Of a DNA stretch of 64,000 nt, positions 17,266 to 63,734 are shown piece after piece. The notes beneath the pieces are model-generated. The model searched no databases and was not told the DNA's origin. It saw only the letters and a list, made by a program, of their open reading frames with translations. The stretch covers positions 23,818-87,817 of the forward strand of contig JBFLWW010000002.1 of the NCBI GenBank assembly GCA_040757475.1. Direction: 5' to 3'. The translations under genes were made by a program, and so were the position numbers. This DNA comes from Nitrospirota bacterium. Its GTDB lineage: Bacteria > Nitrospirota > Thermodesulfovibrionia > Thermodesulfovibrionales > SM23-35. The number at the start of each line of letters is the position of its first letter. Positions within the stretch are counted from its first letter, which is position 1.

Positions 17266-17609
17266 GCCCACATCAGGTGAGCGGGTTCGCCCTCCTCGAG
17301 GTTATGATTGCAGTTGGCATTGTTGGGGCCCTCCTTGTTACCCTCATATATACATTGAATTATAATCTTGGCATTGCTGAAAGACACGAGACTATTACTG
17401 TTGCAGCTATACTTGCAAGAGATAAAATTTCCGAGATAGAGAAAATGCCTGTTGATTCCAGAGGAGAATTCCCTGAACCTTATTCTGATTATCAATATGA
17501 GACCACAGTCAAAGAATCCGTATATCCTAACATATCAGAAATATCAGTTGTTGTTAGAAAAGGGAAAGAAGAGGTTAAACTCAGCGAATTAATTCAAAGT
17601 GCAAAATGA
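17202..17609 (+). CDS. gspI: Minor pseudopilin GspI (repeat-encoded long leader)
   Basis: ATGA overlap with the gspH stop. The cleavage motif is QVSG/FALLEVMIAVGIV. The first ~22 codons lie in the 77-nt repeat element. Confidence 0.6.
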   Translation: MKNSKLRNSKIFNFKFLILNSRPHQVSGFALLEVMIAVGIVGALLVTLIYTLNYNLGIAERHETITVAAILARDKISEIEKMPVDSRGEFPEPYSDYQYETTVKESVYPNISEISVVVRKGKEEVKLSELIQSAK

Positions 17610-17669
17610 AAAATGCAAAATTAAGGAATTTCAGAATTTTTAATTTTGAATTTTCAATTTTAAATTTCC
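17593..17669 (+). repeat. 77-nt AT-rich inverted heptamer element, copy 2 (about 88% identical to copy 1)
   Basis: TTCAAAG TGCAAAA TGAAAAA TGCAAAA TTAAGGA ATTTCAG AATTTTT AATTTTG AATTTTC AATTTTA AATTTCC. It spans the gspI stop and gspJ start. Confidence 0.9.
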
Positions 17670-25044: not shown

Positions 25045-26705
25045 AACTTAGAGAACTTCTTCACGGTTGTGATTATATTGACTCCTCACTTGTCACTTGT
25101 CACTTGTCACTCGATACGGACATCTCAGGTGTAGCTTATGATTCGAGAAAGGTGAAAGAAGGTTACCTGTTTGTGGCGATAAAAGGTGAGAAGCACGATG
25201 GCCATGATTTCATCGGTGATGCAATTAAGCGAGGAGCAGTGGCAATAGTGCATGAAAAAACAGTAACGAGTTACGAGTTACGAGTTACGAGTAAAGAAAA
25301 AGACTTGTCACTTGTCACTCGTCACTTGTCACTTATTCAGGTCAAAAACAGCAGAAAGGCACTTGCCTGTATCGCAAATAATTTTTACGGGAGGCCCTCT
25401 GAGAGGCTCACAGTTATAGGTATAACCGGTACAAACGGGAAGACAACGACAACATATCTCCTTAAATCTATACTCGAATCGTGGGGAAAAGAAATCGGTC
25501 TTATTGGAACAATACAATACATGATAAAGGACAAAAGTTACTCTGCATTATATACAACACCCGAGGCATTAGAGTTCCATGGACTTTTAAGAGATATGCT
25601 CTTATCAGGGTGCACGCATATCATATCAGAGGTCTCATCACACGCCCTTGCTCAGAGCAGAGTGGATGGGACTGTTTTTAAGACTGTAGCGTTTACAAAT
25701 CTCACAAGGGAACATCTGGACTTCCATAAAACTTTGGAGGATTACTTCAGGGCAAAGGAGAGACTGTTTAGAGAGCTTCTCGATAAGGATGGGACCTCTG
25801 TAATAAATCTCGATGACCTATATGGAAAAAGACTGATCTCTTCACTCAGCAGCGGGGTCCCCAGAAAGTCGCAAGACTTTCTGGGGCGTATATTAACATA
25901 CGGCCTTGAGACAGGAGCAGACATTATGGCGAGGGATATCAATAGTTCATTCAAAGGGTTGAGGTTCAAAATAGCATTCCGTGGCAGGAATTATAATATC
26001 TCATCTGCTCTGATGGGTCTACCAAATGTATACAATATTATGTCTGCAGCTGGGGCATCAATCTCGATAGGAGTTCCATGGGATATAATTCTTGAGGGTA
26101 TAAAAAATTTAGGCACTGTTACAGGCAGATTCGAAAAGGTTAATCTTGATCAGAATTTTCTGTGTATCGTTGATTATGCCCATACAGAGGATGCCCTCGA
26201 GAGGCTGATATATACAGCGAGGGAACTTATAAATAAGCCTTTAGTCAATAGTCATCAGTCATTAGTGAAAGACAGTAACAAGTTACGAGTTACGAGTAAC
26301 AAGTATGAAGATAAGAACTTGTCACTTGTTACTTGTCACTCGTCACCCCGTATTATTACTGTCTTTGGGTGTGGAGGAGATAGAGATCGCAGTAAGAGAC
26401 CGGGGATGGGTACAGTAGCAACAAGGCTTAGCGATTTTGTGATTATCACCTCTGACAATCCGAGGTCTGAAGACCCGAACAAAATAATTAGAGAGATTGA
26501 AGCAGGAGCTATAAGGAGAAACTATATAATCGAACCTGACAGAGCAGAGGCAATCAAAAGAGCTATTATGCTGGCAGGCGAGGGAGATATTGTCCTTGTT
26601 GCAGGCAAGGGACATGAGGATTATCAGGAAATTAAAGGTGTAAGGTATAGATTTAATGACAGGGAAATATTAGAAAAGGCGATCAAACAAAGAATAAAGT
26701 CGTAA
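25041..26705 (+). CDS. murE: UDP-MurNAc-tripeptide synthetase MurE, carrying three in-frame repeat insertions
   Basis: Contains DSRKV, GITGTNGKTTT, DYAHTEDAL and GCGGDRD. The ORF is 554 aa versus roughly 490-500 aa typical. Confidence 0.9.
   Translation: MKLRELLHGCDYIDSSLVTCHLSLDTDISGVAYDSRKVKEGYLFVAIKGEKHDGHDFIGDAIKRGAVAIVHEKTVTSYELRVTSKEKDLSLVTRHLSLIQVKNSRKALACIANNFYGRPSERLTVIGITGTNGKTTTTYLLKSILESWGKEIGLIGTIQYMIKDKSYSALYTTPEALEFHGLLRDMLLSGCTHIISEVSSHALAQSRVDGTVFKTVAFTNLTREHLDFHKTLEDYFRAKERLFRELLDKDGTSVINLDDLYGKRLISSLSSGVPRKSQDFLGRILTYGLETGADIMARDINSSFKGLRFKIAFRGRNYNISSALMGLPNVYNIMSAAGASISIGVPWDIILEGIKNLGTVTGRFEKVNLDQNFLCIVDYAHTEDALERLIYTARELINKPLVNSHQSLVKDSNKLRVTSNKYEDKNLSLVTCHSSPRIITVFGCGGDRDRSKRPGMGTVATRLSDFVIITSDNPRSEDPNKIIREIEAGAIRRNYIIEPDRAEAIKRAIMLAGEGDIVLVAGKGHEDYQEIKGVRYRFNDREILEKAIKQRIKS
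25080..25114 (+). repeat. Heptamer array (GACTCCT, 3x CACTTGT, CACTCGA) in the murE N-terminus
   Basis: Read directly from the sequence. It translates DSSLVTCHLSLD. Confidence 0.9.
25262..25338 (+). repeat. Composite inverted heptamer element (5x AGTTACG-type, spacer unit, 5x CTTGTCA-type) in murE
   Basis: 11 units on one lattice. It translates VTSYELRVTSKEKDLSLVTRHLSL. Confidence 0.9.
26241..26345 (+). repeat. Composite element of 15 heptamers = 35 codons in murE
   Basis: 4x TAGTCA-type, 5x AGT[TA]AC[AG]-type, a spacer, then 4x CTTGT[CT]A-type units. It translates LVNSHQSLVKDSNKLRVTSNKYEDKNLSLVTCHSS. Confidence 0.9.
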
Positions 26706-33674: not shown

Positions 33675-34864
33675 AATATGATAAGTGGATGCTTTTTGTC
33701 ACAATTCTCCTTATAGGTTTTGGTGCACTTATGATATACAGCTCCACATCTGTTATCACACCTGTGCTTGCAAAGAAAAATGTCACAGAATTTTATTATT
33801 TCAAAAGGCATATGTTTACGATGCTTATCGGTTTTGGGATTATGTTTTTTGCCTACAGGCTAAAACTTTCTACAATTAAGAAGATGGCCGTGCCCCTCCT
33901 GATTTTTTCTTTTGTATTACTAATATTAGTTTTTGTGCCTGGCATAGGTGTCTCTGCCAATAATGCAAGGAGGTGGATAAGACTCTGGCCCTCTACATTC
34001 CAGCCATCAGAGCTTGTTAAGCTCTCCATGGTCATATTTCTTGCAAAGTATATGTCAATGTTAGAGTATAGAACAGACAGCCTTGTCTCTTTTATAAAAC
34101 CTGTTCTTGTAATGGCGGTATTTCAGGTGGTTTTTCTCAAACAGCCTGATTTTGGGTCTGTGATAAGCCTTATGCTTCTGACATTTATAATGTTATTTCT
34201 TTCAGGCATAAGGCTCAGATATCTTGCATATCTGTCAGTGCTTGCCCTGCCTATAATATACAAACTTATCATGGAGCCTTACCGCCTCAAAAGGGTTATG
34301 GCATTTCTCGATCCGTGGAAAGACCCTCAGGGAAGCGGATTCCAGCTTGTACAATCTTTTATAGCCCTCGGCAGCGGAGGGCTAACAGGCGTTGGACTTG
34401 GAAAGTCCAGACAGAAATTAGCCTTCCTACCCGAATCCCATACGGATTTCATATTCTCTCTAATCGGGGAGGAACTCGGCTTTATAGGTGTGCTGGTCGT
34501 TATAACGCTTTTCTTGTTCTTGTTTATCAAGGGGATATCCATTGCAAACAGGTCAAGGGACAAGTTTGTCTATTATCTTGCATTCGGACTTTCACTGATG
34601 ATCTCTTTGCAGGCGCTAATTAATTTTGCAGTTGCAACAGGCATGGTACCAACAAAAGGTTTGCCACTGCCGTTTATTAGCTATGGGGGTTCATCTCTCT
34701 TTGTGAATATGGCTGCTATAGGGATACTGCTTAATATATCGAAGGGAGAGGAGAACAGAAAGATTGCAGATATAGACCCAAAAATGATTGTGAGGAGGAA
34801 GGCCCGATTAAAAATTCAAAATGCAAAATTCAAAAATCAAAATTACGGAATTCCTTTATTTTGA
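33659..34864 (+). CDS. ftsW: Peptidoglycan glycosyltransferase FtsW (SEDS) with repeat-encoded C-terminal tail
   Basis: SEDS motifs are present (RWIRLWPSTFQPSE, LPESHTDFIF, PLPFISYGGSS). Confidence 0.9.
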   Translation: MEFEMKYDKWMLFVTILLIGFGALMIYSSTSVITPVLAKKNVTEFYYFKRHMFTMLIGFGIMFFAYRLKLSTIKKMAVPLLIFSFVLLILVFVPGIGVSANNARRWIRLWPSTFQPSELVKLSMVIFLAKYMSMLEYRTDSLVSFIKPVLVMAVFQVVFLKQPDFGSVISLMLLTFIMLFLSGIRLRYLAYLSVLALPIIYKLIMEPYRLKRVMAFLDPWKDPQGSGFQLVQSFIALGSGGLTGVGLGKSRQKLAFLPESHTDFIFSLIGEELGFIGVLVVITLFLFLFIKGISIANRSRDKFVYYLAFGLSLMISLQALINFAVATGMVPTKGLPLPFISYGGSSLFVNMAAIGILLNISKGEENRKIADIDPKMIVRRKARLKIQNAKFKNQNYGIPLF

Positions 34865-34888
34865 ATTTTTAATTTTAAATTTTAAATT
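34808..34888 (+). repeat. AT-rich inverted heptamer element (core TTACGGAATTCC) at the ftsW 3' end
   Basis: About 12 units in register. The ftsW stop (34862-64) lies inside the element. The left arm translates RLKIQNAKFKNQNYGIPLF*. Confidence 0.9.
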
Positions 34889-41657: not shown

Positions 41658-41685
41658 TTTTTTATAGAAATAACATCAGAATATT

Positions 41686-41736
41686 AAAAATTGCAAATTG
41701 AAAATTTTAAATTTCAAATTTAAAATCTAAAAATTC
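41686..41736. repeat. AAATTNN heptamer array between 5S rRNA and tRNA-Ala
   Basis: aaattgc aaattga aaatttt aaatttc aaattta aaatcta aaaattc. Confidence 0.8.
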
Positions 41737-42059: not shown

Positions 42060-42848
42060 CTATCGTCGAAAGTTCCAATGAGGTGAAAGATACTTTTTAG
42101 CCTCAAGCTCCTGTGCAAAAGATACCTCCTCCTGAGAAGGAGATGAAGGTGTAAACCTTATATCAAAGGCTTCTTCAAAAGAAATCCTGATAGCATTTTT
42201 TAGTTCATCAGGGTTTAAATTAGGTAATACCTCTTTTAATCCAGTAATTGCCTCTCTTATCCCATGAGTGGACTCGAGTTTGAATATCTTAATCATCTCA
42301 TCCTTATCGAGGATATATGGGATGGACCCCTGCTGAAGCAGGCCATCAGGCCAGCGTTTCTGTGCAGAGCCTATAACCTTCTTATTGTTTATAGTAATCT
42401 CTCCGTATGATGTGGATTGAAAACACAAAGGACTTTTGGAGTAACGAGTTTTTCTGAGCAATTTTAACTCTGGCGAGAGACCAATTTTTGATAGTGCAAG
42501 ACTCAGGGCAGTGCTAATCTTTTTATAGCTGTCGAGTAATCCCTTTGAGAATAGCCCCCATGTTGTTTTCACAGAAAAACTGTATGTGATATCATGGCTA
42601 TGCAGAATTGCACGGCCTCCAGTAAGCCTTCTGACAATTGGAATCTGTTTCTCAATGCAGTAATCAATGTCAATATCACTGATCTTCTGAAAGCATCCGA
42701 GGCTCACTGATAGTATATTCCATCCATAGAGCCTCAATGTTGGAGGTACATTATCCTTTCTGACAGCAGTTGTAATCGCCTCATCCAGAGCCATATTGCA
42801 GGCTGCGCTGCGTGACCCAGTATCAATAAAACGCCAGACATCAGTCAT
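42060..42848 (-). CDS. Lipoate-protein ligase / octanoyltransferase family protein (BPL/LPL catalytic domain only)
   Basis: 262 aa. Contains RRLTGGRAILH and the catalytic Lys block KKVIGSAQKR. Confidence 0.75.
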   Translation of the reverse strand: MTDVWRFIDTGSRSAACNMALDEAITTAVRKDNVPPTLRLYGWNILSVSLGCFQKISDIDIDYCIEKQIPIVRRLTGGRAILHSHDITYSFSVKTTWGLFSKGLLDSYKKISTALSLALSKIGLSPELKLLRKTRYSKSPLCFQSTSYGEITINNKKVIGSAQKRWPDGLLQQGSIPYILDKDEMIKIFKLESTHGIREAITGLKEVLPNLNPDELKNAIRISFEEAFDIRFTPSSPSQEEVSFAQELEAKKYLSPHWNFRR

Positions 42849-42918
42849 GAAAAACTATAAACTACATGTCCACAAGATGTAAACCCCCTGATATTGTCAA
42901 GGAAATTTTCTATGTGGT

Positions 42919-43569
42919 ATGCTTATTCGTATGCCTTTTACAGTTTGGTTTTTTTCACTTCTCACTTTTCACTTTTCACTTTTTGCTGTCTCTTTTGCTG
43001 CCTCATCCGTTGAGGAGGACATCGCAAGAATCCAGAAGGCTTATGATAGCATTAAAGACATTAAGGGAAGTTTTGTACAAAAGAGCCATATAAAGGACCT
43101 GAAGCGAACAGATACTTATAAAGGAGAATTCTTTATAAAGAGGCCACAGAAGATGAGGTGGGAATATAAAGGCGATAAAGCTCAGGAGGTAATCATCAAC
43201 AACAAGGATATCATAATATACCAGAAGGAAGAAAGGCAGGCGTTTAGAGGTAAATTTGATAGAGATACATATGGTCAGGCACCCATAGCCCTCCTCAGCG
43301 GATTCAGAGACATACAGAAGGAGTTTGTTGTATCAAAGAAAAATAGCACTCTTCTGCTTAAACCAATAAGGCCGATGGGAAATATCCTGTCTATTAAGAT
43401 AGAGCTTTCTGATAATAAATTCCCTATCAACTCATTTACCATAAACGACACGCACTCAAATTTGATAAAGATTATGCTGAAGGGCGTGAAGATAAATACA
43501 GGCTTGAAGGATTCTATTTTCGAGATTTCATTACCAGAAGACACGAAAATAGTGGATGAATTTCTTTAG
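42919..43569 (+). CDS. lolA: LolA-like periplasmic lipoprotein carrier
   Basis: Signal peptide, then IKGSFVQKSHIKDLKRTDTYKGEFFIKRPQKMRWEY, a LolA-type pattern. The signal-peptide h-region is a heptamer array. Confidence 0.6.
   Translation: MLIRMPFTVWFFSLLTFHFSLFAVSFAASSVEEDIARIQKAYDSIKDIKGSFVQKSHIKDLKRTDTYKGEFFIKRPQKMRWEYKGDKAQEVIINNKDIIIYQKEERQAFRGKFDRDTYGQAPIALLSGFRDIQKEFVVSKKNSTLLLKPIRPMGNILSIKIELSDNKFPINSFTINDTHSNLIKIMLKGVKINTGLKDSIFEISLPEDTKIVDEFL
42951..42985 (+). repeat. C(T)TTTCA heptamer array forming the LolA-like signal-peptide h-region
   Basis: tttttca cttctca cttttca cttttca ctttttg, which translates FFSLLTFHFSLF. Confidence 0.9.
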
Positions 43570-47086: not shown

Positions 47087-48109
47087 ATGAATAATGAAGG
47101 AAAGATTCTTATCGTAGACGATGAACTCGGGCCGAGAGAAGCCATAAGGATGATACTGAAGGACAGGTATGATGTGACAACTGCATCAGGGGCAAGAGAA
47201 GGGTTCAGCCATCTAGCAAAAAACAGATTCGACCTGATAGTCCTCGATATCAAGATGCCGGACATGGATGGCATTACTGCTTTAAAAGAGATAAAAAGGA
47301 TGTATCCTGATACCGAGGTCATCATGATAACAGCCTATGCCAGTATCGAAACAGCAAGGAGTGCTATTCGTTTCGGCGCCCTTGATTATCTGATAAAACC
47401 CTTCGATAAGGACGATGTGATAAATGTGATCGAACGCGGACTGCTAAAAAGACGCAATCTGAAAAAATCTATATCAGAGTATGAGAATCTATTACATACT
47501 AAAAAATATCTTGAAGACCAAATAGAAACTGCCAGACAGAATTTTATAATATGTTATGAAGGGACCATAAAGGCTTTGATACGTGCAATAGATGCTAAAG
47601 ACCACTACACCTTTGACCACTCTGAACATGTAGCAAAACTATCCTCAGCAATAGCAGATGAACTCGGATTTTCAAAAATTATGAGAGATAAACTCGAACA
47701 GGCAGCCATCATACACGACATAGGGAAGATAGGGGTAAACGAGCAGATATTAAGAAAAGAAGGGTTACTCACTACAAGTGAATTTGCTGAGATAAAGAAA
47801 CACCCTGAGATTGGCGTCAGGATTGTCAATGCAGTCCCTTTCCTTGAAGATACAGTCCAGGTAATCCTCTACCACCACGAGAGATTTGACGGCACAGGAT
47901 TTCCTGAAGGACTTAAAAGAAATGAGATACCATTGCAGGTGAGGATTGTTACAATCGCAGATGCTATAGACGCTATGATGCATGACAGACCGTACAGAAA
48001 GGCCCTCTCTCATAGCCAGCTCATTGACGAGCTCAAGAAAGGTGCTGGCATCCAGTTTGACCCTGAGATTGTAAGCCTGATAACAGACAAAAAAATTAAC
48101 CTGTTTTAA
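47087..48109 (+). CDS. Response regulator with HD-GYP phosphodiesterase domain (RpfG-like)
   Basis: The REC domain has ILIVDDE and DLIVLDIKMPDMDG. The HD-GYP domain has HDIGKIGV and HHERFDGTGFP. Confidence 0.85.
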   Translation: MNNEGKILIVDDELGPREAIRMILKDRYDVTTASGAREGFSHLAKNRFDLIVLDIKMPDMDGITALKEIKRMYPDTEVIMITAYASIETARSAIRFGALDYLIKPFDKDDVINVIERGLLKRRNLKKSISEYENLLHTKKYLEDQIETARQNFIICYEGTIKALIRAIDAKDHYTFDHSEHVAKLSSAIADELGFSKIMRDKLEQAAIIHDIGKIGVNEQILRKEGLLTTSEFAEIKKHPEIGVRIVNAVPFLEDTVQVILYHHERFDGTGFPEGLKRNEIPLQVRIVTIADAIDAMMHDRPYRKALSHSQLIDELKKGAGIQFDPEIVSLITDKKINLF

Positions 48110-48122
48110 CACAAGCAATACG

Positions 48123-49214
48123 GTGATGTTAATCCTTGGAATAGATACCTCCTGTGATGATACATGTGCGTCAGTCGTCGAAGACGGGGTCAGAATAATC
48201 TCCAATATCGTCTCGACCCAGACAGAGATACATAAGAAATACGGTGGCATTGTGCCTGAGCTTGCATCAAGAAGACACATAGAGATGATATGGCCTGTTG
48301 TTGATGAGGCAGTGAAAGGCGCAGGGATTGAACCTGAAGACCTGTCTGCTATAGCAGTATGCCATGGTCCAGGACTGATAGGTTCCCTCCTCATAGGCTG
48401 TTCCTTTGCAAAGGCGATATGCTATTCAAAAAATGTCCCTCTTGTTACTGTAAACCACCTTGAGGGTCATATATTCTCTTGTTTTTTAAGGGAAGGGGGT
48501 TTCATGGAGGAAACTCCGTTTCCCCCATGCACTCCTGAATTTCCATTCCTATCCCTCATCGTCTCAGGAGGCCACACATGCCTCTACAGGGTTGATGGCT
48601 TTGGTAGATATAGAGAACTCGGCAGAACACGGGATGATGCTGCAGGTGAGGCATATGACAAGGTCTCAAAACTCCTTGGTCTCGGATACCCTGGCGGCCC
48701 TGTTATAGATAAACTCGCACAGGATGGAAACCCTGATGCAGCAGATTTCCCGAGGCCGTATCTGCCTGAATCCTTTGATTTCAGCTTCAGCGGACTTAAA
48801 ACCGCAGTGCTGAATTTCGTAAAAACAACAGTCATTAGTCAACAGTCATTAGTCAGTAGTCAAAAAACCAGTGACCAATGTCCAATGACCAATGACCAAT
48901 CCCACTTGTCACTGGCGGATATTGCTGCATCATTTCAGGCATCTGTAGTAGATGTACTTGTAAAGAAAACAGAATGGGCAGTAAAAAAAGAACGGATAAA
49001 AAGGGTTGCCCTCTCAGGTGGAGTCTCTGCAAACAGTGAATTGAGAAAAGGGATGAAGGGAATGGGTGATGCGATAGGAGTGGAGATATTTATACCTCCT
49101 GTATCATTGTGCACAGATAATGCTGCCATGATTGCTGGAGCTGGATATCATCATTTCAATGCCGGCAATATTGCAGGGCTTGATCTCAATCCACAGGCGT
49201 ATCTGCCGCTATAA
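48123..49214 (+). CDS. tsaD: tRNA N6-adenosine threonylcarbamoyltransferase TsaD with an 84-nt in-frame repeat insertion
   Basis: Contains ILGIDTSCDDT, HLEGH, SGGHT and FSFSGLKT. The ORF is 363 aa versus about 335-340 aa typical. Confidence 0.9.
   Translation: MMLILGIDTSCDDTCASVVEDGVRIISNIVSTQTEIHKKYGGIVPELASRRHIEMIWPVVDEAVKGAGIEPEDLSAIAVCHGPGLIGSLLIGCSFAKAICYSKNVPLVTVNHLEGHIFSCFLREGGFMEETPFPPCTPEFPFLSLIVSGGHTCLYRVDGFGRYRELGRTRDDAAGEAYDKVSKLLGLGYPGGPVIDKLAQDGNPDAADFPRPYLPESFDFSFSGLKTAVLNFVKTTVISQQSLVSSQKTSDQCPMTNDQSHLSLADIAASFQASVVDVLVKKTEWAVKKERIKRVALSGGVSANSELRKGMKGMGDAIGVEIFIPPVSLCTDNAAMIAGAGYHHFNAGNIAGLDLNPQAYLPL
48827..48910 (+). repeat. 12-unit (84 nt = 28 codons) composite inverted heptamer element inside tsaD
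   Basis: aacagtc attagtc aacagtc attagtc agtagtc aaaaaac cagtgac caatgtc caatgac caatgac caatccc acttgtc. Confidence 0.9.
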
Positions 49215-49216
49215 AT

Positions 49217-49244
49217 AGTTTCTTGAGTTACAAACCAAGAAACT
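49217..49244 (+). terminator. Hairpin after tsaD
   Basis: AGTTTCTTG (49217-25) pairs with CAAGAAACT (49236-44) around a 10-nt loop. There is no U-tract. Confidence 0.3.
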
Positions 49245-49271
49245 CAATGAACTCAACAAACTCAATAAACT
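49241..49271 (+). repeat. 9-nt tandem repeat (AACTCAATG / AACTCAACA / AACTCAATA / AACT)
   Basis: Read directly from the sequence. It lies just upstream of a TTGTAA-18-TATAAT promoter (49271-49300) for thiD. Confidence 0.6.
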
Positions 49272-49308
49272 TGTAAATCCCTTTCCTGCAAGGGTATAAT
49301 GCCTTAAG

Positions 49309-50073
49309 ATGAAAATTGCTCTATCAATAGCCGGTTCTGACCCAACAGGGGGTGCTGGACTACAGGCAGATTTAAAAGTCTTCAGAGCCTTTGAGGTACA
49401 CGGGCTTTCTGTGGTATCTGCCATTACTGCACAAAATACAGAAGGTGTAGATTCCATCTTGCCTGTTGACAAAAATTTCTTTGAAAAACAGCTTGATATA
49501 CTTCTATCCGATATCAGGCCGGATGCAATAAAAATAGGGATGCTCTATAGCAGGTGGGCTGTTGAACTTGTTGCTAAGATGTTAAATAGTTATTCATTGA
49601 GCAACCTTGTTATTGACCCTGTTGGTGTCTCATCATCAGGCACAAGCCTTGTTGACAATGAAACCTTAGATGCGATAAGGGAAAGACTCTTCCCTTATTC
49701 GAGGGTTATAACACCAAATATCTATGAAGCATCAGTGCTTACCTGTATTAACATAGAAGATAAGGATGATATGGGGAAAGCCGCCAGGGTCTTGAAAGAT
49801 ATGGGGCCTGAGGTTGTTGTCATTACAGGAGAACATCTGGATAGAGTTGTTTTAGACCTTTATTACAACGGGGACTTTCGCCATCTCGAGAGTGAAAAAA
49901 TAGAGGGCGAATATCATGGGACAGGCTGTGTATTTTCTGCAGCCATCACTGCATTGCTCGCCCTCGGCAATAATAGCCCTCTCGAATCTGTCAGAAGGGC
50001 AAAGGAATTCATGAATAATGCAATAAAGAAGGCTTACCATCCCGGCAGAGGGATGGGATTACTCTATATATAA
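49309..50073 (+). CDS. thiD: Hydroxymethylpyrimidine/phosphomethylpyrimidine kinase ThiD
   Basis: Contains IAGSDPTGGAGLQADLKVF and GTGCVFSAAI. Confidence 0.9.
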   Translation: MKIALSIAGSDPTGGAGLQADLKVFRAFEVHGLSVVSAITAQNTEGVDSILPVDKNFFEKQLDILLSDIRPDAIKIGMLYSRWAVELVAKMLNSYSLSNLVIDPVGVSSSGTSLVDNETLDAIRERLFPYSRVITPNIYEASVLTCINIEDKDDMGKAARVLKDMGPEVVVITGEHLDRVVLDLYYNGDFRHLESEKIEGEYHGTGCVFSAAITALLALGNNSPLESVRRAKEFMNNAIKKAYHPGRGMGLLYI

Positions 50074-50082
50074 TAAGGTAAC

Positions 50083-51426
50083 ATGCCGAAGGTAAAGACC
50101 TTTTATCAATGCCAGTCCTGTGGCTATACAAGCCCTAAGTGGCTCGGTAAGTGCCCTGACTGTGGGACATGGAATAGCCTTGTTGAAGAAAGGAAAGAGG
50201 CGGTTAGGAGTCTCGGCAAATCCGAACCAATATCCCTGAGTTCAATCACAGGTGAATACAAACAGAGAACATCCACAGGGATAAAAGAGCTCGACAGGGT
50301 TTTAGGAGGTGGGGTCGTCGCTGGTTCTGTTGTTCTCGTTGGAGGTGACCCTGGCATAGGAAAGTCCACACTGCTAATACAGGCAATCTCAGGCCTTTCA
50401 AAAAAATGCGGAAAGGTTCTTTATGTATCAGGTGAAGAATCTCCCGAGCAGATAAAGCTCAGGGCAGATAGACTCTCGATTAATTCATCCGAGATAATCC
50501 TGCTTTCAGAGACTTCACTCGAAGGCATTGTTGATACTGCCTCAAAAATCTCTCCAAAGGTAATGGTCGTGGATTCTATCCAGACTGTCTATACACAGGA
50601 ACTCGTCTCTGCCCCGGGCTCTGTAGGCCAGGTAAGGGACTGTGCAACAAAATTAATGCTCTTTGCAAAAAGGTCAGAAGTCCCTGTGTTCCTGGTCGGC
50701 CATGTCACAAAGGAGGGGGCAATCGCTGGTCCACGTGTACTTGAACATATTGTTGACACAGTCCTTTATTTCGAAGGCGACAGGGGATATTCATATCGAA
50801 TACTTCGGACCGTAAAAAACCGCTTCGGCTCAACAAACGAGATAGGGGTCTTTGAGATGTCTGATTCCGGTCTTCGAGAAGTGGAAAACCCGTCAGAGTT
50901 ATTCATTTCAGAAAGACCATTGAATGTTTCAGGTTCAATAGTTGTTGCCAGCCTTGAAGGCACAAGACCTATTATGGTGGAGATGCAGGCACTTGTCTCA
51001 CCGACTAACTTCGGTATACCTCGTAGAACAACCATAGGTGTTGACTTTAACAGGGTAAACCTCCTCGTTGCTGTGCTTGAAAAAAGGGCAGGATTCCACT
51101 TAGGAGGTATGGATATATTTGTAAATGTTGTTGGTGGACTCAGGATAATCGAGCCTGCTGTTGACCTCGGTATTGCTACAACAATAGCCTCATCTCTCAG
51201 AGAAGTATCTGCAGACCCCAGAACCTTTGTCTTTGGCGAGATTGGCCTTTCAGGGGAGATCAGGGCAGTTACTCAGGCAGAACAAAGACTGAAGGAGGCA
51301 TCAAAGGTAGGGTTTAAGCAGGCTGTTATACCTCTGGCTAACCTTGAAAAAATAAAAAACAATTTCGGATTAAAAATAACAGGAGTAAAAGATATTGAAG
51401 ACGGTCTCACAGCTCTCCTCCATTAA
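50083..51426 (+). CDS. radA: DNA repair protein RadA
   Basis: Zinc finger CQSCGYTSPKWLGKCPDCGTWNS, Walker A GDPGIGKST, the KNRFG motif and a Lon-like C-terminal domain. Confidence 0.9.
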   Translation: MPKVKTFYQCQSCGYTSPKWLGKCPDCGTWNSLVEERKEAVRSLGKSEPISLSSITGEYKQRTSTGIKELDRVLGGGVVAGSVVLVGGDPGIGKSTLLIQAISGLSKKCGKVLYVSGEESPEQIKLRADRLSINSSEIILLSETSLEGIVDTASKISPKVMVVDSIQTVYTQELVSAPGSVGQVRDCATKLMLFAKRSEVPVFLVGHVTKEGAIAGPRVLEHIVDTVLYFEGDRGYSYRILRTVKNRFGSTNEIGVFEMSDSGLREVENPSELFISERPLNVSGSIVVASLEGTRPIMVEMQALVSPTNFGIPRRTTIGVDFNRVNLLVAVLEKRAGFHLGGMDIFVNVVGGLRIIEPAVDLGIATTIASSLREVSADPRTFVFGEIGLSGEIRAVTQAEQRLKEASKVGFKQAVIPLANLEKIKNNFGLKITGVKDIEDGLTALLH

Positions 51427-51434
51427 AACTAAAT

Positions 51435-51525
51435 TAGAAATGAGAAATGGGAAATGGGAAGTAGGAAATGGGCGGTTAAGATTTTACTTCTTACTTCTCA
51501 CTTCTTACTTCTTACTTCTCACTTT
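51435..51525 (+). repeat. 13-unit composite inverted heptamer element (GGAAATG-type arm / TTACTTC-type arm) downstream of radA
   Basis: tagaaat gagaaat gggaaat gggaagt aggaaat gggcggt taagatt ttacttc ttacttc tcacttc ttacttc ttacttc tcacttt. Confidence 0.9.
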
Positions 51526-52099
51526 ATTCTCCTGTGCAGCACCACGGGTGGAGATACCCGTATATGAAGGAGTTGATGTAAAGGATGTCCTTTCTTCGAA
51601 AAACCGTATTTCAGCCATAGAGACCACATTTTCCATCATCTTTGAAAAAAATGATACTGAGATAAGAGGAGATGCAACACTGAATATCTCCCGTAATGGA
51701 AACCTGAGCCTGCGTGTCTATTCCCTTGGATTTCTTGCACTTGAACTCACATCTGATAATGGCATTATAAAAAGCAATCCGAGTCTTGACAGGAACAAAA
51801 ACGCAATCCTTACATCCGGCCTGAAAGACTGCCTTTTCTGGTGGGATATAAAAGACTTTGAGATTGATGAAAGAGATGATACCTACATCCTTAAAAATCT
51901 TTCGAGAAAGATATGGATAGACAGAAAAACAATGCTTCCCCGGAAACAGATAATCTCCCTTGAAGATGGCAGAGAATTAAAGGTGTATTATGAAGGTTCT
52001 GAGAAGGAAGGTGATATCTGGTATCCTGCAAAAATGAGGATAGAACTCTCTAAATATTCTGTGACATTGAGGATTAAGGGTATATCATTCACTATTTAA
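51440..52099 (+). CDS. Outer-membrane lipoprotein, LolB/DUF4292-like (putative); signal peptide wholly repeat-encoded
   Basis: Starts MRNGKWEVGNGRLRFYFLLLTSYFLLLTLFSC with an LFSC lipobox. The family call is weak. Confidence 0.45.
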   Translation: MRNGKWEVGNGRLRFYFLLLTSYFLLLTLFSCAAPRVEIPVYEGVDVKDVLSSKNRISAIETTFSIIFEKNDTEIRGDATLNISRNGNLSLRVYSLGFLALELTSDNGIIKSNPSLDRNKNAILTSGLKDCLFWWDIKDFEIDERDDTYILKNLSRKIWIDRKTMLPRKQIISLEDGRELKVYYEGSEKEGDIWYPAKMRIELSKYSVTLRIKGISFTI

Positions 52100-52903
52100 A
52101 CCGAGGTCTACTGCTACAGTCTTTATTATCGAACCGTTTATAACCTCTGTTTTAAACAGATAACCCTCAAGTAGTGCATTATCACAGATAGTGTTTATCA
52201 GCCTCGGCACACCTTTTGAGTAGTTGTAAATAAGCATTATAGCCTCATCCGAGAATATATCTCTATTGCATCCCGCAATTCTAAGTCTGTGTTTTATGTA
52301 ATCCCTTGTATTATCCTCAGAGAATGACTTCAGTTTTACTCTAACAGCCACCCTCTGTTTAAGAGGTTCATCTAAAGAGAGGACATCTTCAAGCTCTGTC
52401 AGGCCAAAAAATACAAAATTTATCATCTTTCCTTCAGAGATCTCCATATTCAGAAGCCCCCTGAATTCCTCCATAAGCTCCCTCGAGCTCAGCATCTGGA
52501 CCTCATCAATAAGCACAACTGCTGTTTTCCCATGTTCATTTATCTCGTGTAGCCTTTTATACATCTGACTGAGAAGTTCAATCTTATTTTCCTTCAGGTC
52601 CTTTACACCAAGCTGTATCGCAAATTTTCTGAGCAGCCACTCTGCGCTGACAGACGAGTGAATTACTACAAGGAGTGCTGCCTCATATATTTCCTCATTC
52701 AACTCCTCAAGGAGCCTCCTTGCAAGTGTCGTCTTTCCGGTCCCTGCATCCCCTATAACAACAGCAAGGCCTTTTTTGGTATCTATGGCATATCTCAACC
52801 TTATAAGGGCCTCTGAGTGCTGGATACTGTTATAATAAAACCTGCTGTTAACCACATTCGAGAATGGGTGTTCTTTAAGGTTATAGTATTCTAAATAGTC
52901 CAT
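52085..52903 (-). CDS. ExeA/GspA/MshM-like AAA ATPase
   Basis: Starts YYNLKEHPFSNV. Walker A is GDAGTGKTT and Walker B is VVLIDEVQ. 272 aa. Confidence 0.75.
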   Translation of the reverse strand: MDYLEYYNLKEHPFSNVVNSRFYYNSIQHSEALIRLRYAIDTKKGLAVVIGDAGTGKTTLARRLLEELNEEIYEAALLVVIHSSVSAEWLLRKFAIQLGVKDLKENKIELLSQMYKRLHEINEHGKTAVVLIDEVQMLSSRELMEEFRGLLNMEISEGKMINFVFFGLTELEDVLSLDEPLKQRVAVRVKLKSFSEDNTRDYIKHRLRIAGCNRDIFSDEAIMLIYNYSKGVPRLINTICDNALLEGYLFKTEVINGSIIKTVAVDLGLNSE

Positions 52904-56612: not shown

Positions 56613-56622
56613 ATATACTAAA

Positions 56623-56709
56623 TGCAAAATTCAAAAAGCAAAATTCAAAAATCCAATTCAAGATTTAAAATTTCCTTAATTTTGCATTTTTCATTTTTAA
56701 TTTAAAATT
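56623..56709. repeat. AT-rich inverted heptamer element in the glyA-nrdR spacer
   Basis: Positions 56673-56696 are the exact reverse complement of 17604-17627 (24 nt). Confidence 0.9.
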
Positions 56710-61344: not shown

Positions 61345-61357
61345 TAATGAAACATCA

Positions 61358-61484
61358 ATTCAAAATGCAAAATGCAAAATTAAAAATTTCAGAGCAAAAT
61401 TCAAAATTAACCACAATCTTAACTATGCATGTTCTTTTAATTTTGAATTTAAATTTTGCATTTTTAATTTTAAATTTTAAATTT
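61358..61484. repeat. Largest AT-rich inverted heptamer element (127 nt) in the lysS-lolC spacer
   Basis: The left arm is caaaatg/caaaatt units (61358-61409). The loop is 61410-61435. The right arm is aattttg/aatttta units (61436-61484). Confidence 0.85.
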
Positions 61485-62724: not shown

Positions 62725-63021
62725 ATGTTTAAGCTCATAAAAAGAGTTATATGTCTTCTGCTAATTATTGGAGTTCTCTTCATTACCCTTTCATTATGGC
62801 AGGGCGGAAAGCCTTTCAGGTGGGTCGGCAAAAAATCAGAAAAGGCAGGAGAAGTTATTAAAGAGAAAAGTGAAGCAATAAGCAAAGAGGCAGACAGAAT
62901 AAAAGAAAAGACAGAACAGATTAAGGATGCAACAAAAAAGGTGACTAAAGGCATTGAGAAAACAGGTGAAAAGATAAAAGGTATCAGAGGGAAAAAGGAT
63001 GAAAATGAAGCAAAGAAGTGA
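62725..63021 (+). CDS. Small membrane-anchored Lys/Glu-rich protein
   Basis: 98 aa. An N-terminal TM (VICLLLIIGVLFITLSL) is followed by about 65 residues of K/E-rich low-complexity helix. It is coupled to lolC and lolD. Confidence 0.5.
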   Translation: MFKLIKRVICLLLIIGVLFITLSLWQGGKPFRWVGKKSEKAGEVIKEKSEAISKEADRIKEKTEQIKDATKKVTKGIEKTGEKIKGIRGKKDENEAKK

Positions 63022-63734
63022 AAGGGGCAAAGGTGATTGAGATAAAGGATTTAAAAAAATCCTTTATTACAGATGCTGGTGAGCTTCAGGTACTGAAGGG
63101 CATTGATCTTTCAATAAAGGAAGGAGAAATAGTTGGGATAGTCGGTGCATCAGGTGTAGGGAAAAGTACGCTTCTGCATATCTTAGGTGCACTGGATAGG
63201 CCGACCTTCGGCAAGGTCTTCTATAATAGCACTGATATTTTCTCCCTTGATGAAGATTCACTCGCCTCCTTCAGAAACAATACTATCGGCTTTGTCTTTC
63301 AATTCCATCATCTACTCCCTGAATTTACAGCCATTGAGAATGTTATGATGCCAGGACTTATCAATGTAAGTTCAAAAGTTCAAAAGTTCAAAAGTTCAAA
63401 GTATAAAGAAATCCTTGAAAGGGCAGGAAGACTTCTCGATGAGCTGGGTTTATCCGAAAGAAAAAGACACAGGCCAGGAGAACTATCCGGAGGTGAACAG
63501 CAGAGGGTTGCGGTTGCAAGGGCACTTGTCCTTGAACCAAAGGTTGTCCTTGCAGACGAGCCCACAGGTAATCTTGACACAGCAACAGGTGAGGAATTAT
63601 TTAACCTCCTTATCAACCTTAATAAAGAAAAAAGGATTACATTCGTCATTGTCACACATAATGAGACCCTTTCAAATCACTGCCACAGGGTTCTCAAAAT
63701 GGTGGATGGGAGAATAGTTGCAGGTTTGGGGTAA
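63018..63734 (+). CDS. lolD: Lipoprotein-releasing ABC transporter ATP-binding protein LolD with an in-frame repeat insertion
   Basis: Walker A GASGVGKST, signature LSGGEQQRVAVARAL, Walker B VLADEPTGNLD. Confidence 0.9.
   Translation: MKGAKVIEIKDLKKSFITDAGELQVLKGIDLSIKEGEIVGIVGASGVGKSTLLHILGALDRPTFGKVFYNSTDIFSLDEDSLASFRNNTIGFVFQFHHLLPEFTAIENVMMPGLINVSSKVQKFKSSKYKEILERAGRLLDELGLSERKRHRPGELSGGEQQRVAVARALVLEPKVVLADEPTGNLDTATGEELFNLLINLNKEKRITFVIVTHNETLSNHCHRVLKMVDGRIVAGLG
63371..63401 (+). repeat. TTCAAAAG octamer array (3x 8 nt plus one 7-nt unit) inside lolD
   Basis: ttcaaaag ttcaaaag ttcaaaag ttcaaag, which translates SSKVQKFKSSK. Confidence 0.9.

What the first reader, a model, noticed from the sequence alone, without database searches (positions are those of the whole stretch)
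48827..48910. An 84-nt hairpin-like heptamer element sits inside tsaD, with units matching cyanobacterial STRR consensus units and a stop-avoiding substitution
Twelve units sit on one lattice: 5 (A/T)NNAGTC units, one A-rich unit, 4-5 CAATGAC-type units, then ACTTGTC. The two arms are near complements (GTCATTA versus CAATGAC, one A-C mismatch per unit).

The sense strand contains CAACAGT and the complement of TTGGTCA. As I recall, these are two of the three classical STRR heptamers of Calothrix and Anabaena, although nothing else here looks cyanobacterial.

In the tsaD frame the run reads gac caa tGt cca atg acc aat gac caa tcc. The consensus unit would give caa tGA at the position where the unit is changed to GTCCAAT. 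The linker between FSFSGLKT and DIAASFQ is about 37 aa here, against about 15 aa in E. coli TsaD as I recall it.
Basis: partly seen in the sequence, partly recalled or inferred. Interest (0 to 1): 0.75.

Follow-up and report, generated by a model that had tools for sequence, protein, structure and literature searches.

The report
Translated heptamer-repeat hairpin inside tsaD
The tract is real: it is a hairpin-shaped block of 7-base repeats, read through as about 23 extra amino acids in a floppy surface loop of the essential tRNA-modification enzyme TsaD. It belongs to a wider population of such repeats that sit in frame in housekeeping genes of this groundwater Nitrospirota lineage.

Summary
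**Observation: confirmed.**
- Window 48827-48910 holds twelve heptamers on one lattice: arm 1, an A-rich loop, arm 2, and the stub of a third array. All lie inside tsaD (48123..49214).
- The host is a Thermodesulfovibrionia (Nitrospirota) MAG. Its window has 20 strict period-7 arrays against 0-1 for any other period.

**What it is.**
- The tract is an in-frame extra in a hypervariable linker: 38 aa here against 15 aa in basal relatives and solved TsaD structures. AlphaFold confidence there is low.
- Only one of its six reading frames is open.
- The "stop-avoiding" TGT unit is real in effect but is not a local repair. The same composite, read as ..NDQCPMTND.., sits in murE, queA, tsaE, prmC, a radical-SAM gene and NRPS genes of other organisms.
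- The GACCAAT unit occurs very widely (metagenome contigs of GC 0.35-0.73; Nostoc, Rhizobium and Serratia plasmids), so it is not specific to cyanobacteria.

**How it evolves.**
- One 21-nt (three-unit) step separates two close relatives.
- A 93-96% identical sister genome carries a completely different linker.
- Synonymous codon identity is 0.90-0.93 in the element against 0.50 in the rest of the gene.

**Verdict.** It is best read as tolerated, dispersed repeat DNA, analogous to Rickettsia palindromic elements. It is a new variant of a known kind. How it spreads is unresolved.

The parts
48123..49214 (+). tsaD coding sequence (363 aa from GTG; 362 aa from the ATG at 48126 in the public record)
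   Evidence: ORF list; Pfam TsaD E = 9.6e-94; PDB TsaD homologs E = 2e-91; 100% identical public protein P0001.
48804..48917 (+). Hypervariable linker between FSFSGLKT and DIAASFQ. It is 38 codons here, against 15 in basal relatives.
   Evidence: Linker table for 80 species loci and 120 proteins. Query residues 236-260 have no counterpart in 8iey or 6n9a. AlphaFold pLDDT is below 50 at residues 249-258.
48827..48861 (+). Arm 1: five (A/T)NNAGTC heptamers (AACAGTC ATTAGTC AACAGTC ATTAGTC AGTAGTC). Translated as part of ..TVISQQSLVSSQ..
   Evidence: Lattice; TRF rows 48826-48863. The third unit, AACAGTC, avoids the in-frame TAG that ATTAGTC would give.
48862..48868 (+). A-rich loop unit AAAAAAC
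   Evidence: Lattice; unpaired apex of the predicted hairpin. Retained even where the arms have turned over (L090).
48869..48903 (+). Arm 2: five CAATGAC-type heptamers (CAGTGAC CAATGTC CAATGAC CAATGAC CAATCCC). Translated as ..SDQCPMTNDQS.. The variant codons TGT (48879-48881) and TCC (48900-48902) replace in-frame TGA.
   Evidence: The consensus unit belongs to the TTGGTCA/GACCAAT class. The same block, in the same frame, occurs in other genes.
48903..48913 (+). Stub (CACTTGTCACT) of a third array, (TCACTYG)n. This array is 21-24 nt longer in relatives L082, L083, L087 and L088.
   Evidence: DNA of homologous linkers. The 21-nt difference between L085 and L087 lies in this array.
48503..48535 (+). 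Second in-frame insertion in tsaD: a 33-nt G5...C5 palindrome (GGGGGTTTCATGGAGGAAACTCCGTTTCCCCC with a GAAA apex), encoding ..GFMEETPFPPC..
   Evidence: Absent from the 93%-identical sister genome L001. Patchy among relatives. No counterpart in PDB homologs. pLDDT below 50 at residues 126-134.
25262..25334 (+). Related feature: heptamer hairpin (AGTTACG)x4 - loop - (ACTTGTC)x4, in frame in murE. It is a 13-aa insert in the N-terminal domain.
   Evidence: RNA fold -29.7 kcal/mol, z = -4.6. The site is hypervariable in relatives.
26241..26346 (+). Related feature: three-array element (AGTCANN)-(AGTTACG)-(ACTTGTC), in frame in murE. It is an insert of about 38 aa that splits Mur_ligase_C.
   Evidence: In other genomes the same site carries the tsaD-type element.
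51431..51524 (+). Related feature: hairpin (AAATGRG)n - (TYACTTC)n, forming the N-terminal signal peptide of a LolA-like lipoprotein. Absent from the sister genome.
   Evidence: Fold -31.6 kcal/mol, z = -5.4.

Best explanation
The tract is a copy of a dispersed, hairpin-forming heptamer-repeat element. It has two imperfectly complementary arrays around an A-rich loop, plus the stub of a third array. It sits in, and is translated as part of, a permissive surface linker of TsaD.

**Shown.**
- It adds about 23 residues that solved homologs lack and that AlphaFold predicts with low confidence.
- It is open in only one of six reading frames, because variant units stand wherever a consensus unit would give an in-frame stop.
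- The linker is a hotspot for such arrays across Thermodesulfovibrionia.
- The element changes by three-unit (21-nt) slippage, by turnover of arm units, by nested insertion of other palindromes, and by wholesale replacement.
- The same composite, in the same frame, occurs in unrelated housekeeping genes of other genomes.

**Inferred.**
- It has no dedicated role in t6A synthesis. It is tolerated repeat DNA, filtered only by the need to keep the frame and avoid stops.
- Its unusually high nucleotide conservation between distant lineages, and its complete replacement in a sister genome, reflect recent short-tract exchange. This would be homologous recombination through the conserved flanks, or ectopic conversion between array-bearing sites, or both. 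It would not be slow vertical descent.

**Unresolved.** I cannot tell whether new copies arise by a transposition-like process or by repeated slippage and template switching.
For: **Anatomy and frame.**

**A genome-wide population of arrays.**
- 20 strict period-7 arrays against 0-1 for other periods.
- In-frame arrays in murE and murD, and an 8-mer array in an ABC ATPase.
- Arrays forming signal peptides.

**A permissive loop.**
- The linker is 15 aa in basal relatives and up to 74 aa in others.
- PDB homologs lack residues 236-260.
- pLDDT is below 50 at residues 249-258.

**A hotspot.** In 80 species loci there are 12 strict arrays in 6.0 kb of linker, against 5 in 482 kb outside it.

**Homologous copies.** L082, L083, L085, L087 and L088 have the same number of arm-1 and arm-2 units and the same TGT and TCY variant codons.

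**Modes of change.**
- Three-unit step: L085 and L087 are 96.8% identical in tsaD with one 21-nt gap.
- Arm turnover with the loop retained: L090.
- Nested C6/G6 palindrome: L091.
- Replacement: sister genome L001 is collinear at 93-96% identity but has an unrelated linker, which is similar to that of the much more distant L036.

**Signature of exchange.**
- Synonymous codon identity is 0.90-0.93 in the linker, 0.60-0.71 in the 20 codons on either side, and 0.50 elsewhere.
- Nucleotide identity peaks at 0.93-0.97 in the core of the element.

**Dispersed family.** The same composite and frame occur in murE site 1 (L093), murE site 2 (L092, L168), queA (L116), a radical-SAM/DUF2344 gene (L184) and an NRPS A-domain (L124). 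The arm-2 block alone, in the same frame, also occurs in tsaE (L137), prmC (L185) and other NRPS genes (L094, L132, L195).
Against: - No copy of the full composite was found elsewhere in this 64-kb window. The dispersed copies are all in other genomes, and the 24-nt core they share was fixed by my search pattern.
- Upstream of that core, identity to the tsaD copy is only 54-73% for the copies that have an AGTCANN arm, and 35-41% for NRPS L132 and L094.
- Selection for an open frame could produce the same CCAATGT placement convergently.
- No terminal repeats, target-site duplication or transposase were identified.
- The high synonymous conservation could instead reflect selection on a nucleic-acid function.
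- Translation of the insert is inferred from the intact frame and has not been observed.
- The neighbour-joining tree used to judge patchiness is poorly resolved at 78-85% identity.
Confidence: 0.62

Rival explanations
1. The hairpin is a functional nucleic-acid element kept by purifying selection. Examples would be an RNA structure on the sense or antisense transcript, or a DNA hairpin or protein-binding array. On this reading it merely has to coexist with the reading frame.
For: - Synonymous codon identity is 0.90-0.93 in the element against 0.50 in the rest of tsaD, and the core of the element is the best-conserved DNA in the gene.
- A hairpin is predicted in all six homologous copies, with 93% of cells paired.
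- The antisense fold is -37.9 kcal/mol, z = -6.9.
- Heptamer repeats upstream of recF and recO affect expression in Nostoc.
Against: - There are no compensatory pairs, and the covariation score is not above the shuffles.
- A 93-96% identical sister genome has replaced the element with an unrelated hairpin.
- L090 has lost arm complementarity.
- There is no Rfam hit and no terminator-like site; the one weak promoter-like match (9 of 12) is at 48906-48933, at the 3' edge.
- Which strand folds better is not consistent among the window's hairpins.
- Basal relatives lack the element altogether.
Confidence: 0.15
2. One reading: a purely local microsatellite. On this view the array arose and expanded in situ in tsaD by polymerase slippage, and was then repaired locally by a stop-avoiding point substitution. 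It would have no relation to copies elsewhere.
For: - A 21-nt step separates L085 and L087.
- Arm units turned over in L090 while the loop and flanks stayed in place.
- Arrays are about 190-fold enriched in the linker, with 11 different unit classes there.
- Heptamer repeats are the commonest long simple repeats in prokaryotes, and this has been attributed to slippage (Mrazek et al. 2007, as cited).
Against: - Slippage alone does not make an inverted arm.
- The same composite, with TGT in the same unit and the same frame, is present in murE, queA, a radical-SAM gene and an NRPS gene.
- Unit numbers in arms 1 and 2 are identical across lineages whose tsaD is only about 75% identical.
- The linker of the sister genome is unrelated even in the LNFVK codons.
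Confidence: 0.15
3. The element is a cyanobacterial STRR acquired by horizontal transfer from cyanobacteria.
For: - The arm-2 unit belongs to the TTGGTCA class, and CAACAGT is present twice.
- GAC(C/T)AAT x8 lies upstream of recO in Nostoc 7120.
- Arm-2-like arrays are on Nostoc plasmids, and an arm-1-like array is on a Fischerella plasmid.
Against: - The host and all close relatives are Nitrospirota.
- The same unit forms arrays on Rhizobium, Serratia and Pantoea plasmids and in contigs of GC 0.35-0.73. One of those contigs places it next to a TTTAGGG telomere-type repeat.
- The best hits of the NRPS carrier L124 are not cyanobacterial.
- HIP1 is absent from most carrier contigs.
- With about 18 unit classes in the window and roughly 1,170 possible classes (4^7/7, halved for strand), one exact match to three named units is expected in roughly 5% of such windows. 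This is my own estimate.
Confidence: 0.04
4. The tract is a contingency (phase-variable) locus that switches or tunes TsaD through changes in repeat number.
For: - Copy number differs by three units between close relatives.
- Simple repeats drive phase variation in other bacteria (background).
Against: - Every version seen keeps the reading frame.
- Two MAGs and one independent assembly of this species have the same length.
- Arm unit numbers are stable across deep divergence.
- tsaD is a housekeeping gene with no obvious benefit from switching.
Confidence: 0.03

Closest known systems
Rickettsia palindromic elements (RPE; Ogata et al. 2000, 2002, as reviewed in PMC10969869)
   Same: - Short palindromic repeats inserted in frame into unrelated housekeeping genes.
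- Always read in one frame, giving a recognisable peptide.
- Located where the fold tolerates them.
- Patchy among related genomes.
   Different: - No sequence relationship, and a different phylum.
- The arms are themselves tandem heptamer arrays, so the element also changes by unit slippage.
- The element is about 85-110 nt, against about 150 bp for RPEs.
- Several unit families share the same hotspots.
- Multiple copies within one genome have not yet been shown for this exact composite.
Cyanobacterial STRR heptanucleotide repeats (Mazel et al. 1990) and the Nostoc 7120 heptamer repeats (bioRxiv 10.1101/2022.06.06.494920)
   Same: - Tandem heptamers.
- The unit GACCAAT/TTGGTCA is identical, and CAACAGT is present.
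- Many arrays lie next to start codons.
   Different: - The host is Nitrospirota.
- The arrays are paired as hairpins.
- Many lie inside coding sequence and are translated.
- The unit is not restricted to cyanobacteria.
TAACTGA repeats of marine Beggiatoaceae (MacGregor 2015, PMC4679880)
   Same: - Abundant heptamer direct repeats.
- Mostly intergenic and close to start codons.
- Ten sets lie inside ORFs, in the only orientation free of stops.
   Different: - One dominant unit there, against about 18 unit classes here.
- Inverted pairing is rare there (one case).
- The intragenic cases there are mostly in hypothetical proteins, not in conserved enzymes.
Geobacter metallireducens four-heptamer elements (GGACCGG; Aklujkar et al. 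2009, PMC2700814)
   Same: [quoted passage not shown]
   Different: - The unit is GC-rich.
- The number of units is fixed at four.
- They are not described as hairpin pairs or as sitting in hypervariable hotspots.
Long simple sequence repeats of period 7 (Mrazek, Guo & Shah 2007)
   Same: Period 7 is over-represented among long repeats, and slippage is the proposed cause. This fits the 21-nt step seen here.
   Different: That survey noted that intragenic repeats mostly have periods that are multiples of three. Here period-7 arrays are intragenic and are kept open by variant units.

Membership tests
Cyanobacterial STRR | Tandem repeats of a heptanucleotide | tested here: met
   Twelve units on one lattice; TRF period 7.
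Cyanobacterial STRR | The unit is one of CCCCAGT, TTGGTCA or CAACAGT (list from my own knowledge of Mazel et al. 1990; not retrievable here) | tested here: met
   The arm-2 consensus falls in the TTGGTCA class under rotation and complement. CAACAGT is present twice, but the arm-1 consensus is CAATAGT/AGTCANN. GAC(C/T)AAT x8 in Nostoc.
Cyanobacterial STRR | Resident in (heterocystous) cyanobacterial genomes | tested here: not met
   All close relatives of the window are Nitrospirota/Thermodesulfovibrionia MAGs. The unit also occurs in many other taxa.
Rickettsia palindromic elements (as a kind: in-frame coding palindromes) | Palindromic (hairpin-forming) sequence | tested here: met
   Fold z = -3.1 on the sense strand and -6.9 on the antisense strand. 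A hairpin is predicted in six homologs.
Rickettsia palindromic elements (as a kind: in-frame coding palindromes) | Inserted in frame in unrelated protein-coding genes, always in the same reading frame | tested here: met
   The peptide ..NDQC[PL]MTND.. occurs in tsaD, murE (two sites), queA, tsaE, prmC, a radical-SAM gene and NRPS genes. Only one of six frames is open.
Rickettsia palindromic elements (as a kind: in-frame coding palindromes) | Many copies of one family within a genome | tested here: inconclusive
   The window (64 kb) has four AGTCANN arrays (26241, 31275, 35985, 48827) but only one GACCAAT array. The whole genome was not available.
Rickettsia palindromic elements (as a kind: in-frame coding palindromes) | Sequence homology to RPE-1 to RPE-10 / Rickettsia host | not tested
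   No RPE sequence was compared. The host is a Nitrospirota MAG, so this is an analogue rather than a member.
MITE | Terminal inverted repeats, target-site duplication and a related autonomous IS | tested here: inconclusive
   The arms are inverted arrays, but no discrete ends or duplication could be defined from the filled and replaced sites. The ORFs I scanned include no transposase.
Phase-variable simple-sequence contingency locus | Repeat-number changes that shift the frame or switch expression within a population | tested here: not met
   The only length change seen keeps the frame (21 nt). Three assemblies of this species are identical in length. Read-level data were not available.
REP/BIME | Extragenic palindromes associated with a RAYT transposase | tested here: not met
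   The element is intragenic. No RAYT/Y1 transposase domain was found among the ORFs scanned.

The most novel reading that the evidence does not exclude
Thermodesulfovibrionia, and possibly other bacteria, host a family of mobile or actively exchanged hairpin elements that are built from tandem heptamers and are competent for translation. These elements colonise a small set of permissive hotspots in essential genes: the tsaD linker, two murE loops, murD, queA, tsaE, prmC, NRPS A-domains, and N-terminal signal peptides.

On this reading they behave as interchangeable cassettes that are swapped between lineages faster than the host genes diverge. That would be a system like the Rickettsia palindromic elements, outside Rickettsia, with its own spreading mechanism. 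That mechanism might target A-tracts or the loops of existing hairpins.
Probability: 0.35. Interest if true: 0.75.

Novelty: new variant of a known kind. Interest (0 to 1): 0.6.

Why it matters
**If the dispersed-family reading holds.** In-frame colonisation of essential genes by coding palindromes is so far best known from Rickettsia. This finding would show that it also occurs in free-living groundwater Nitrospirota, with elements built from the same kind of heptamer arrays long known, and never explained, in cyanobacteria.

**What it offers for further work.**
- Natural filled, empty and replaced sites: the window against the 93-96% identical L001, and L085 against L087. From these, the origin and turnover of heptamer repeats could be worked out.
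- A map of loops in TsaD, MurE and MurD that tolerate 10-40 extra residues.

**Practical warning.** Repeat-encoded segments inflate protein-length variation, create spurious low-complexity 'motifs' (NDQCPMTND, SELRTLNSE, PPLxKGGxGG), and even supply signal peptides. This affects annotation, orthology calling and MAG quality control.

Tried and rejected
- **First metagenome scan.** The pattern that included the loop (TCAAAAAAMCARTGACCAATGTCC) found nothing. The collection evidently lacks the JGI samples that hold L082-L088.
- **Covariation.** The test on six homologous copies gave no compensatory pairs, and the scores were not above the shuffles. The copies are too similar to test structure.
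- **Known signals.** Scans for RNA families, promoters and terminators found nothing at the element.
- **STRR unit sequences.** I could not confirm the classical units from the held literature.
- **Taxonomy of the NRPS carriers.** The best hits of L124 are 53-55% identical and come from Aminicenantes, Deferrimicrobium, Fulvivirga and Bacillus relatives. No cyanobacterial assignment is therefore possible.
- **Strand preference.** I looked for a consistent strand among the window's hairpins, on the idea that the A-C mismatches point to an antisense RNA. It is not consistent: murE1 folds better on the sense strand and tsaD on the antisense strand.
- **Plasmids.** The BLAST found only single arms, never the full composite.
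- **Transposase.** A Pfam pass over 54 window ORFs found no transposase or RAYT.
- **Assembly artefact.** Considered and rejected.
Full report
**1.

Window 48827-48910 reads, on a single 7-nt lattice, AACAGTC ATTAGTC AACAGTC ATTAGTC AGTAGTC / AAAAAAC / CAGTGAC CAATGTC CAATGAC CAATGAC CAATCCC / ACTTGTC. It lies inside an ORF at 48123..49214 whose product is TsaD (Pfam E = 9.6e-94; PDB TsaD homologs).

The two arms pair as an imperfect hairpin:
- 111 nt with flanks: -22.4 kcal/mol, z = -2.2.
- The element alone, sense strand: -19.6 kcal/mol, z = -3.1.
- The element alone, antisense strand: -37.9 kcal/mol, z = -6.9. Here the A-C mismatches become G-U pairs.

The tract is not a statistical accident. 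The window holds 20 strict period-7 arrays, against 0-1 for each of periods 4-6 and 8-12 (TRF).

It is not an assembly artefact either. An independent Logan assembly of run SRR29635772 is 99.95% identical over 2,089 nt and carries the identical element. A second MAG encodes a 99% identical protein with the same insert lengths.

**2. Host and setting**

The 80 closest tsaD loci among species-representative genomes are almost all annotated as Nitrospirota, mostly Thermodesulfovibrionia, and many come from groundwater.

The window carries:
- a type II secretion operon;
- a complete dcw cell-wall and division cluster;
- lolA, two histidine kinases and an HD-GYP response regulator;
- tsaD, thiD and radA;
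- glyA, nrdR and others.

Nothing in it is cyanobacterial, and none of the ORFs I scanned is a transposase.

**3. The tract is an extra in a hypervariable, permissive linker**

- Between the conserved motifs FSFSGLKT and DIAASFQ the window has 38 residues.
- Basal relatives (L070, L073, L076-L080) have 15. Across relatives the linker ranges from 15 to more than 70 residues, with no conserved sequence.
- Solved TsaD structures (8iey, 6n9a) align on both sides but have no counterpart for query residues 236-260.
- An AlphaFold model built on 60 homologs (mean pLDDT 80.6) places the insert between helices 223-245 and 264-290, with pLDDT below 50 at residues 249-258.

It is therefore not met.

**4. 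The linker is a hotspot for heptamer arrays across the clade**

- In the 80 species loci, 12 strict arrays fall in 6.0 kb of linker DNA and only 5 in the other 482 kb. That is roughly a 190-fold enrichment.
- Eleven different unit classes occur at this one site. Many are arranged as arm, loop, complementary arm. An example is L013: GATACAC x4 ... GTGCATC x4.
- Other linkers carry a C/G-run palindrome that translates as PPLxKGGxGG, sometimes nested inside a heptamer hairpin (L091, P0016, P0018).

**5. Stop avoidance is real, but it is a property of the element, not a local repair**

- Only the gene frame of the element is open; the other five frames contain stops.
- Idealised arms would give a stop every seventh codon: SH*SLVI for AGTCATT and PMTNDQ* for CCAATGA.
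- A perfect complement of arm 1 would give ND**LMT.
- In the window, the two in-frame TGA positions are TGT and TCC, while the three out-of-frame TGAs are kept.
- However, the same block CCAATGA-CCAATGT-CCAATGA-CCAATGA is read in the same frame (..NDQC[PL]MTND..) in other genes of other genomes:
  - Preceded by AGTCANN units and an A-rich loop (the full composite): murE site 1 (L093), murE site 2 (L092, L168, L190), queA (L116), a radical-SAM/DUF2344 protein (L184) and one NRPS gene (L124).
  - The block alone in frame, with no AGTCANN arm directly upstream: tsaE (L137), prmC (L185), and NRPS adenylation domains L094, L132 and L195, which like L124 carry it at the LTAEKF|...|Y(R/K/C)TGD loop.
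- GTCCAAT is also a frequent variant unit in long arrays that lie in no long open reading frame.

So the TGT unit either came with the element or was drawn from a standing pool of unit variants.

**6. How the element changes**

*(a) Slippage in steps of three units.* L085 and L087 are 96.8% identical across tsaD and differ by one 21-nt gap, (TCACTCG)x3, in the third array. The window keeps only a stub of that array, at 48903-48913.

*(b) Turnover of arm units.* L090 keeps the flanks and the TCAAAAAAC loop, but its arms are now AGCTCTC and ACTCATT.

*(c) Nested insertion.* Other palindromes have inserted inside the element (L091).

*(d) Wholesale replacement.* Sister genome L001 is collinear with window 47395-52259 at 93-96% identity. 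Only three places break the alignment, and all three are hairpin repeats:
- the tsaD linker, which is unrelated from just after the Ala-Val codons (GCAGTG) up to GATATTGC;
- a 33-nt G5...C5 palindrome at 48503-48535, present only in the window;
- the array pair at 51431-51524, present only in the window.

L001's linker resembles that of L036, a relative with only about 66% protein identity.

*(e) Stability elsewhere.* Against all this, arms 1 and 2 have the same number of units and the same variant codons in L082, L083, L085, L087 and L088. The tsaD genes of these loci are only about 75% identical to the window's at the nucleotide level.

**7. An unexpected conservation signal**

Window against L082, L083 and L088, measured as the fraction of identical codons among identical residues:

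| Region | Synonymous codon identity |
|---|---|
| Linker | 0.90-0.93 |
| 20 codons on either side | 0.60-0.71 |
| Rest of the gene | 0.50 |

Nucleotide identity peaks at 0.93-0.97 in the core of the element, higher than at any catalytic motif.

Combined with the replacement in L001, the simplest reading is recent short-tract exchange of linker cassettes between lineages. The alternative is purifying selection on the nucleic acid. The hairpin is predicted in all six copies, but the alignment shows no compensatory change. No Rfam family or terminator matches, and the only promoter-like match is a weak one at the 3' edge. I cannot exclude the alternative and give it 0.15.

**8. The wider population in the window**

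*Heptamer arrays in frame inside conserved enzymes:*
- murE: a 13-aa insert at 25262-25334, and an insert of about 38 aa at 26241-26346 that splits Mur_ligase_C.
- murD: inserts at 32579-32611 and at three further arrays.
- An 8-mer array lies inside an ABC ATPase domain.

*Arrays that provide N-terminal signal peptides:*
- GspD secretin (11463-11532).
- A PBP5-type carboxypeptidase (31275-31377).
- LolA (42952-42983).
- A LolA-like lipoprotein (51431-51524).

*Further points:*
- AT-rich hairpins sit between genes and at pseudopilin N-termini.
- The two murE sites are hypervariable in 120 relatives and draw on the same repertoire of inserts as the tsaD linker.
- A relative's dcw cluster (L092) has the same array density as the window, 0.28 per kb.

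**9. Relation to cyanobacterial STRR**

The arm-2 consensus is the rotation and complement class of TTGGTCA, and CAACAGT occurs twice. Nostoc 7120 has GAC(C/T)AAT x8 upstream of recO.

But the unit occurs very widely:
- The exact 24-nt core occurs in at least 120 metagenome contigs with GC from 0.35 to 0.73, often as (GACCAAT)n...(ATTGGTC)n hairpins. In one contig it lies beside a TTTAGGG telomere-type repeat.
- Arm-like arrays are found on Rhizobium, Serratia and Pantoea plasmids as well as on Nostoc and Fischerella ones.

Identity of the unit is therefore no evidence of cyanobacterial descent. The list of the three classical STRR units rests on my own knowledge of Mazel et al. 1990, which the held library could not supply.

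**10. Comparison with what is known**

- **Closest analogue in behaviour:** the Rickettsia palindromic elements, which are coding palindromes inserted in frame in many housekeeping genes.
- **Closest in sequence type:**
  - STRR.
  - The heptamer long simple repeats of Mrazek et al.
  - The Beggiatoaceae TAACTGA repeats, of which ten sets lie inside ORFs in the stop-free orientation.
  - The Geobacter GGACCGG x4 elements, 'found within genes'.
- **What I did not find described**:
  - hairpins whose arms are heptamer arrays;
  - their recurrent use of the same permissive hotspots in essential enzymes of Nitrospirota;
  - the cassette-like replacement;
  - the signal peptides built from arrays.

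I therefore rate it a new variant of a known kind.

**11. Verdict**

It is not a cyanobacterial oddity with a bespoke point repair. It is one visible copy of a lineage-wide population of translated heptamer hairpins.

| Question | Assessment |
|---|---|
| Tolerated dispersed repeat, with recent exchange | confidence 0.62 |
| How copies spread (transposition-like, ectopic conversion, or repeated slippage and template switching) | open |
| Interest | 0.6 |
| Strongest unexcluded reading: a mobile, interchangeable, translation-competent cassette family | probability 0.35, interest 0.75 if true |

Noticed in passing
window 48503-48535: A second in-frame insertion in tsaD: a 33-nt G5...C5 palindrome with an inner stem AUGGAG/CUCCGU and a GAAA apex, encoding GFMEETPFPPC. 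It is absent from the 93%-identical sister genome L001 and patchy among relatives (present in P0004, P0006, P0013, P0020, P0025, P0037). The reverse orientation of this kind of element gives the PPLxKGGxGG peptides seen in other linkers.
   Followed up: partly
window 25262-25334 and 26241-26346: Two heptamer hairpin elements in frame in murE, giving inserts of 13 aa and about 38 aa; the second splits the Mur_ligase_C domain. Both sites are hypervariable in 120 relatives (protein length 488-620 aa) and use the same insert repertoire as the tsaD linker.
   Followed up: partly
window 32579-32611, 32739-32763, 32973-33019, 33090-33125: Four separate heptamer arrays (AAGTTCA, TCACTTC, AAAGTTC, CCTCACT) inside murD. 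Three of them (32579, 32973, 33090) coincide with gaps of about 7-10 aa against solved MurD structures. These arrays are not paired as hairpins.
   Followed up: partly
window 11463-11532, 31275-31377, 42952-42983, 51431-51524: N-terminal signal peptides of GspD, a PBP5-type carboxypeptidase, LolA and a LolA-like lipoprotein are encoded largely by heptamer arrays. Where two arms are present (PBP5, LolA-like lipoprotein), the purine-rich arm gives the basic N-region and the TCACTTC-type arm gives the hydrophobic core. The 51431-51524 pair is missing from the sister genome, whose lipoprotein has a short ordinary signal peptide.
   Followed up: partly
window 17187-17262, 17603-17667, 34807-34888, 41683-41732, 56620-56703, 61357-61484: A second class of AT-rich heptamer hairpins (AAATTCA/AAATGCA ... 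TGCATTT/GAATTTT). They lie at gene junctions, at pseudopilin N-termini and on the C-terminal tail of FtsW. The unit TTTTGAA/TTCAAAA is the same as the repeat reported upstream of recF in Nostoc 7120.
   Followed up: no
window 63368-63400: A perfect 8-mer array (AAGTTCAA x4.1) inside the ABC_tran domain of an ABC ATPase (63018..63734). The domain spans 158 residues against a 137-position profile. It is the only strong period-8 array in the window.
   Followed up: no
window 49232-49271: A 9-mer array (AAACTCAAT x4.6) in the tsaD-thiD spacer. The sister genome L001 shares part of it but has 28 extra nucleotides just upstream. A sigma-70-like match (TTGTAA-18-TATAAT, 10 of 12) follows at 49271-49300.
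   Followed up: no
L137 1579-1602, L116 6638-6661, L185 951-974, L184 6657-6680, L094/L124/L132/L195: The same NDQCPMTND-encoding block is in frame in TsaE (the partner of TsaD), QueA, PrmC, a radical-SAM/DUF2344 protein, and four NRPS adenylation domains, always at the LTAEKF|...|Y(R/K/C)TGD loop. The hosts are unidentified, with GC 0.38-0.47.
   Followed up: partly
L095, L106, L126, L127, L136, L141-L143, L207, L211 and others (metagenome contigs, GC 0.60-0.73): In high-GC contigs the same heptamers form short hairpins, (GACCAAT)3-4, a spacer, then (ATTGGTC)2-4. They look like terminator-like or REP-like elements. The organisms and the function are unknown.
   Followed up: no
L098 7800-7954: A (CCAATGA/CCAATGT)n array directly abuts a TTTAGGG telomere-type repeat, so the contig is probably eukaryotic. 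Exact matches to this heptamer array can therefore come from unrelated satellites.
   Followed up: no
L085-L090 versus window 47087-48123: Synteny around tsaD differs. In relatives that carry the window-type linker, tsaD follows lolA (with lplA/lipB upstream). In the window it follows an HD-GYP response regulator, and lolA and lplA lie about 5 kb upstream (42060-43569).
   Followed up: no
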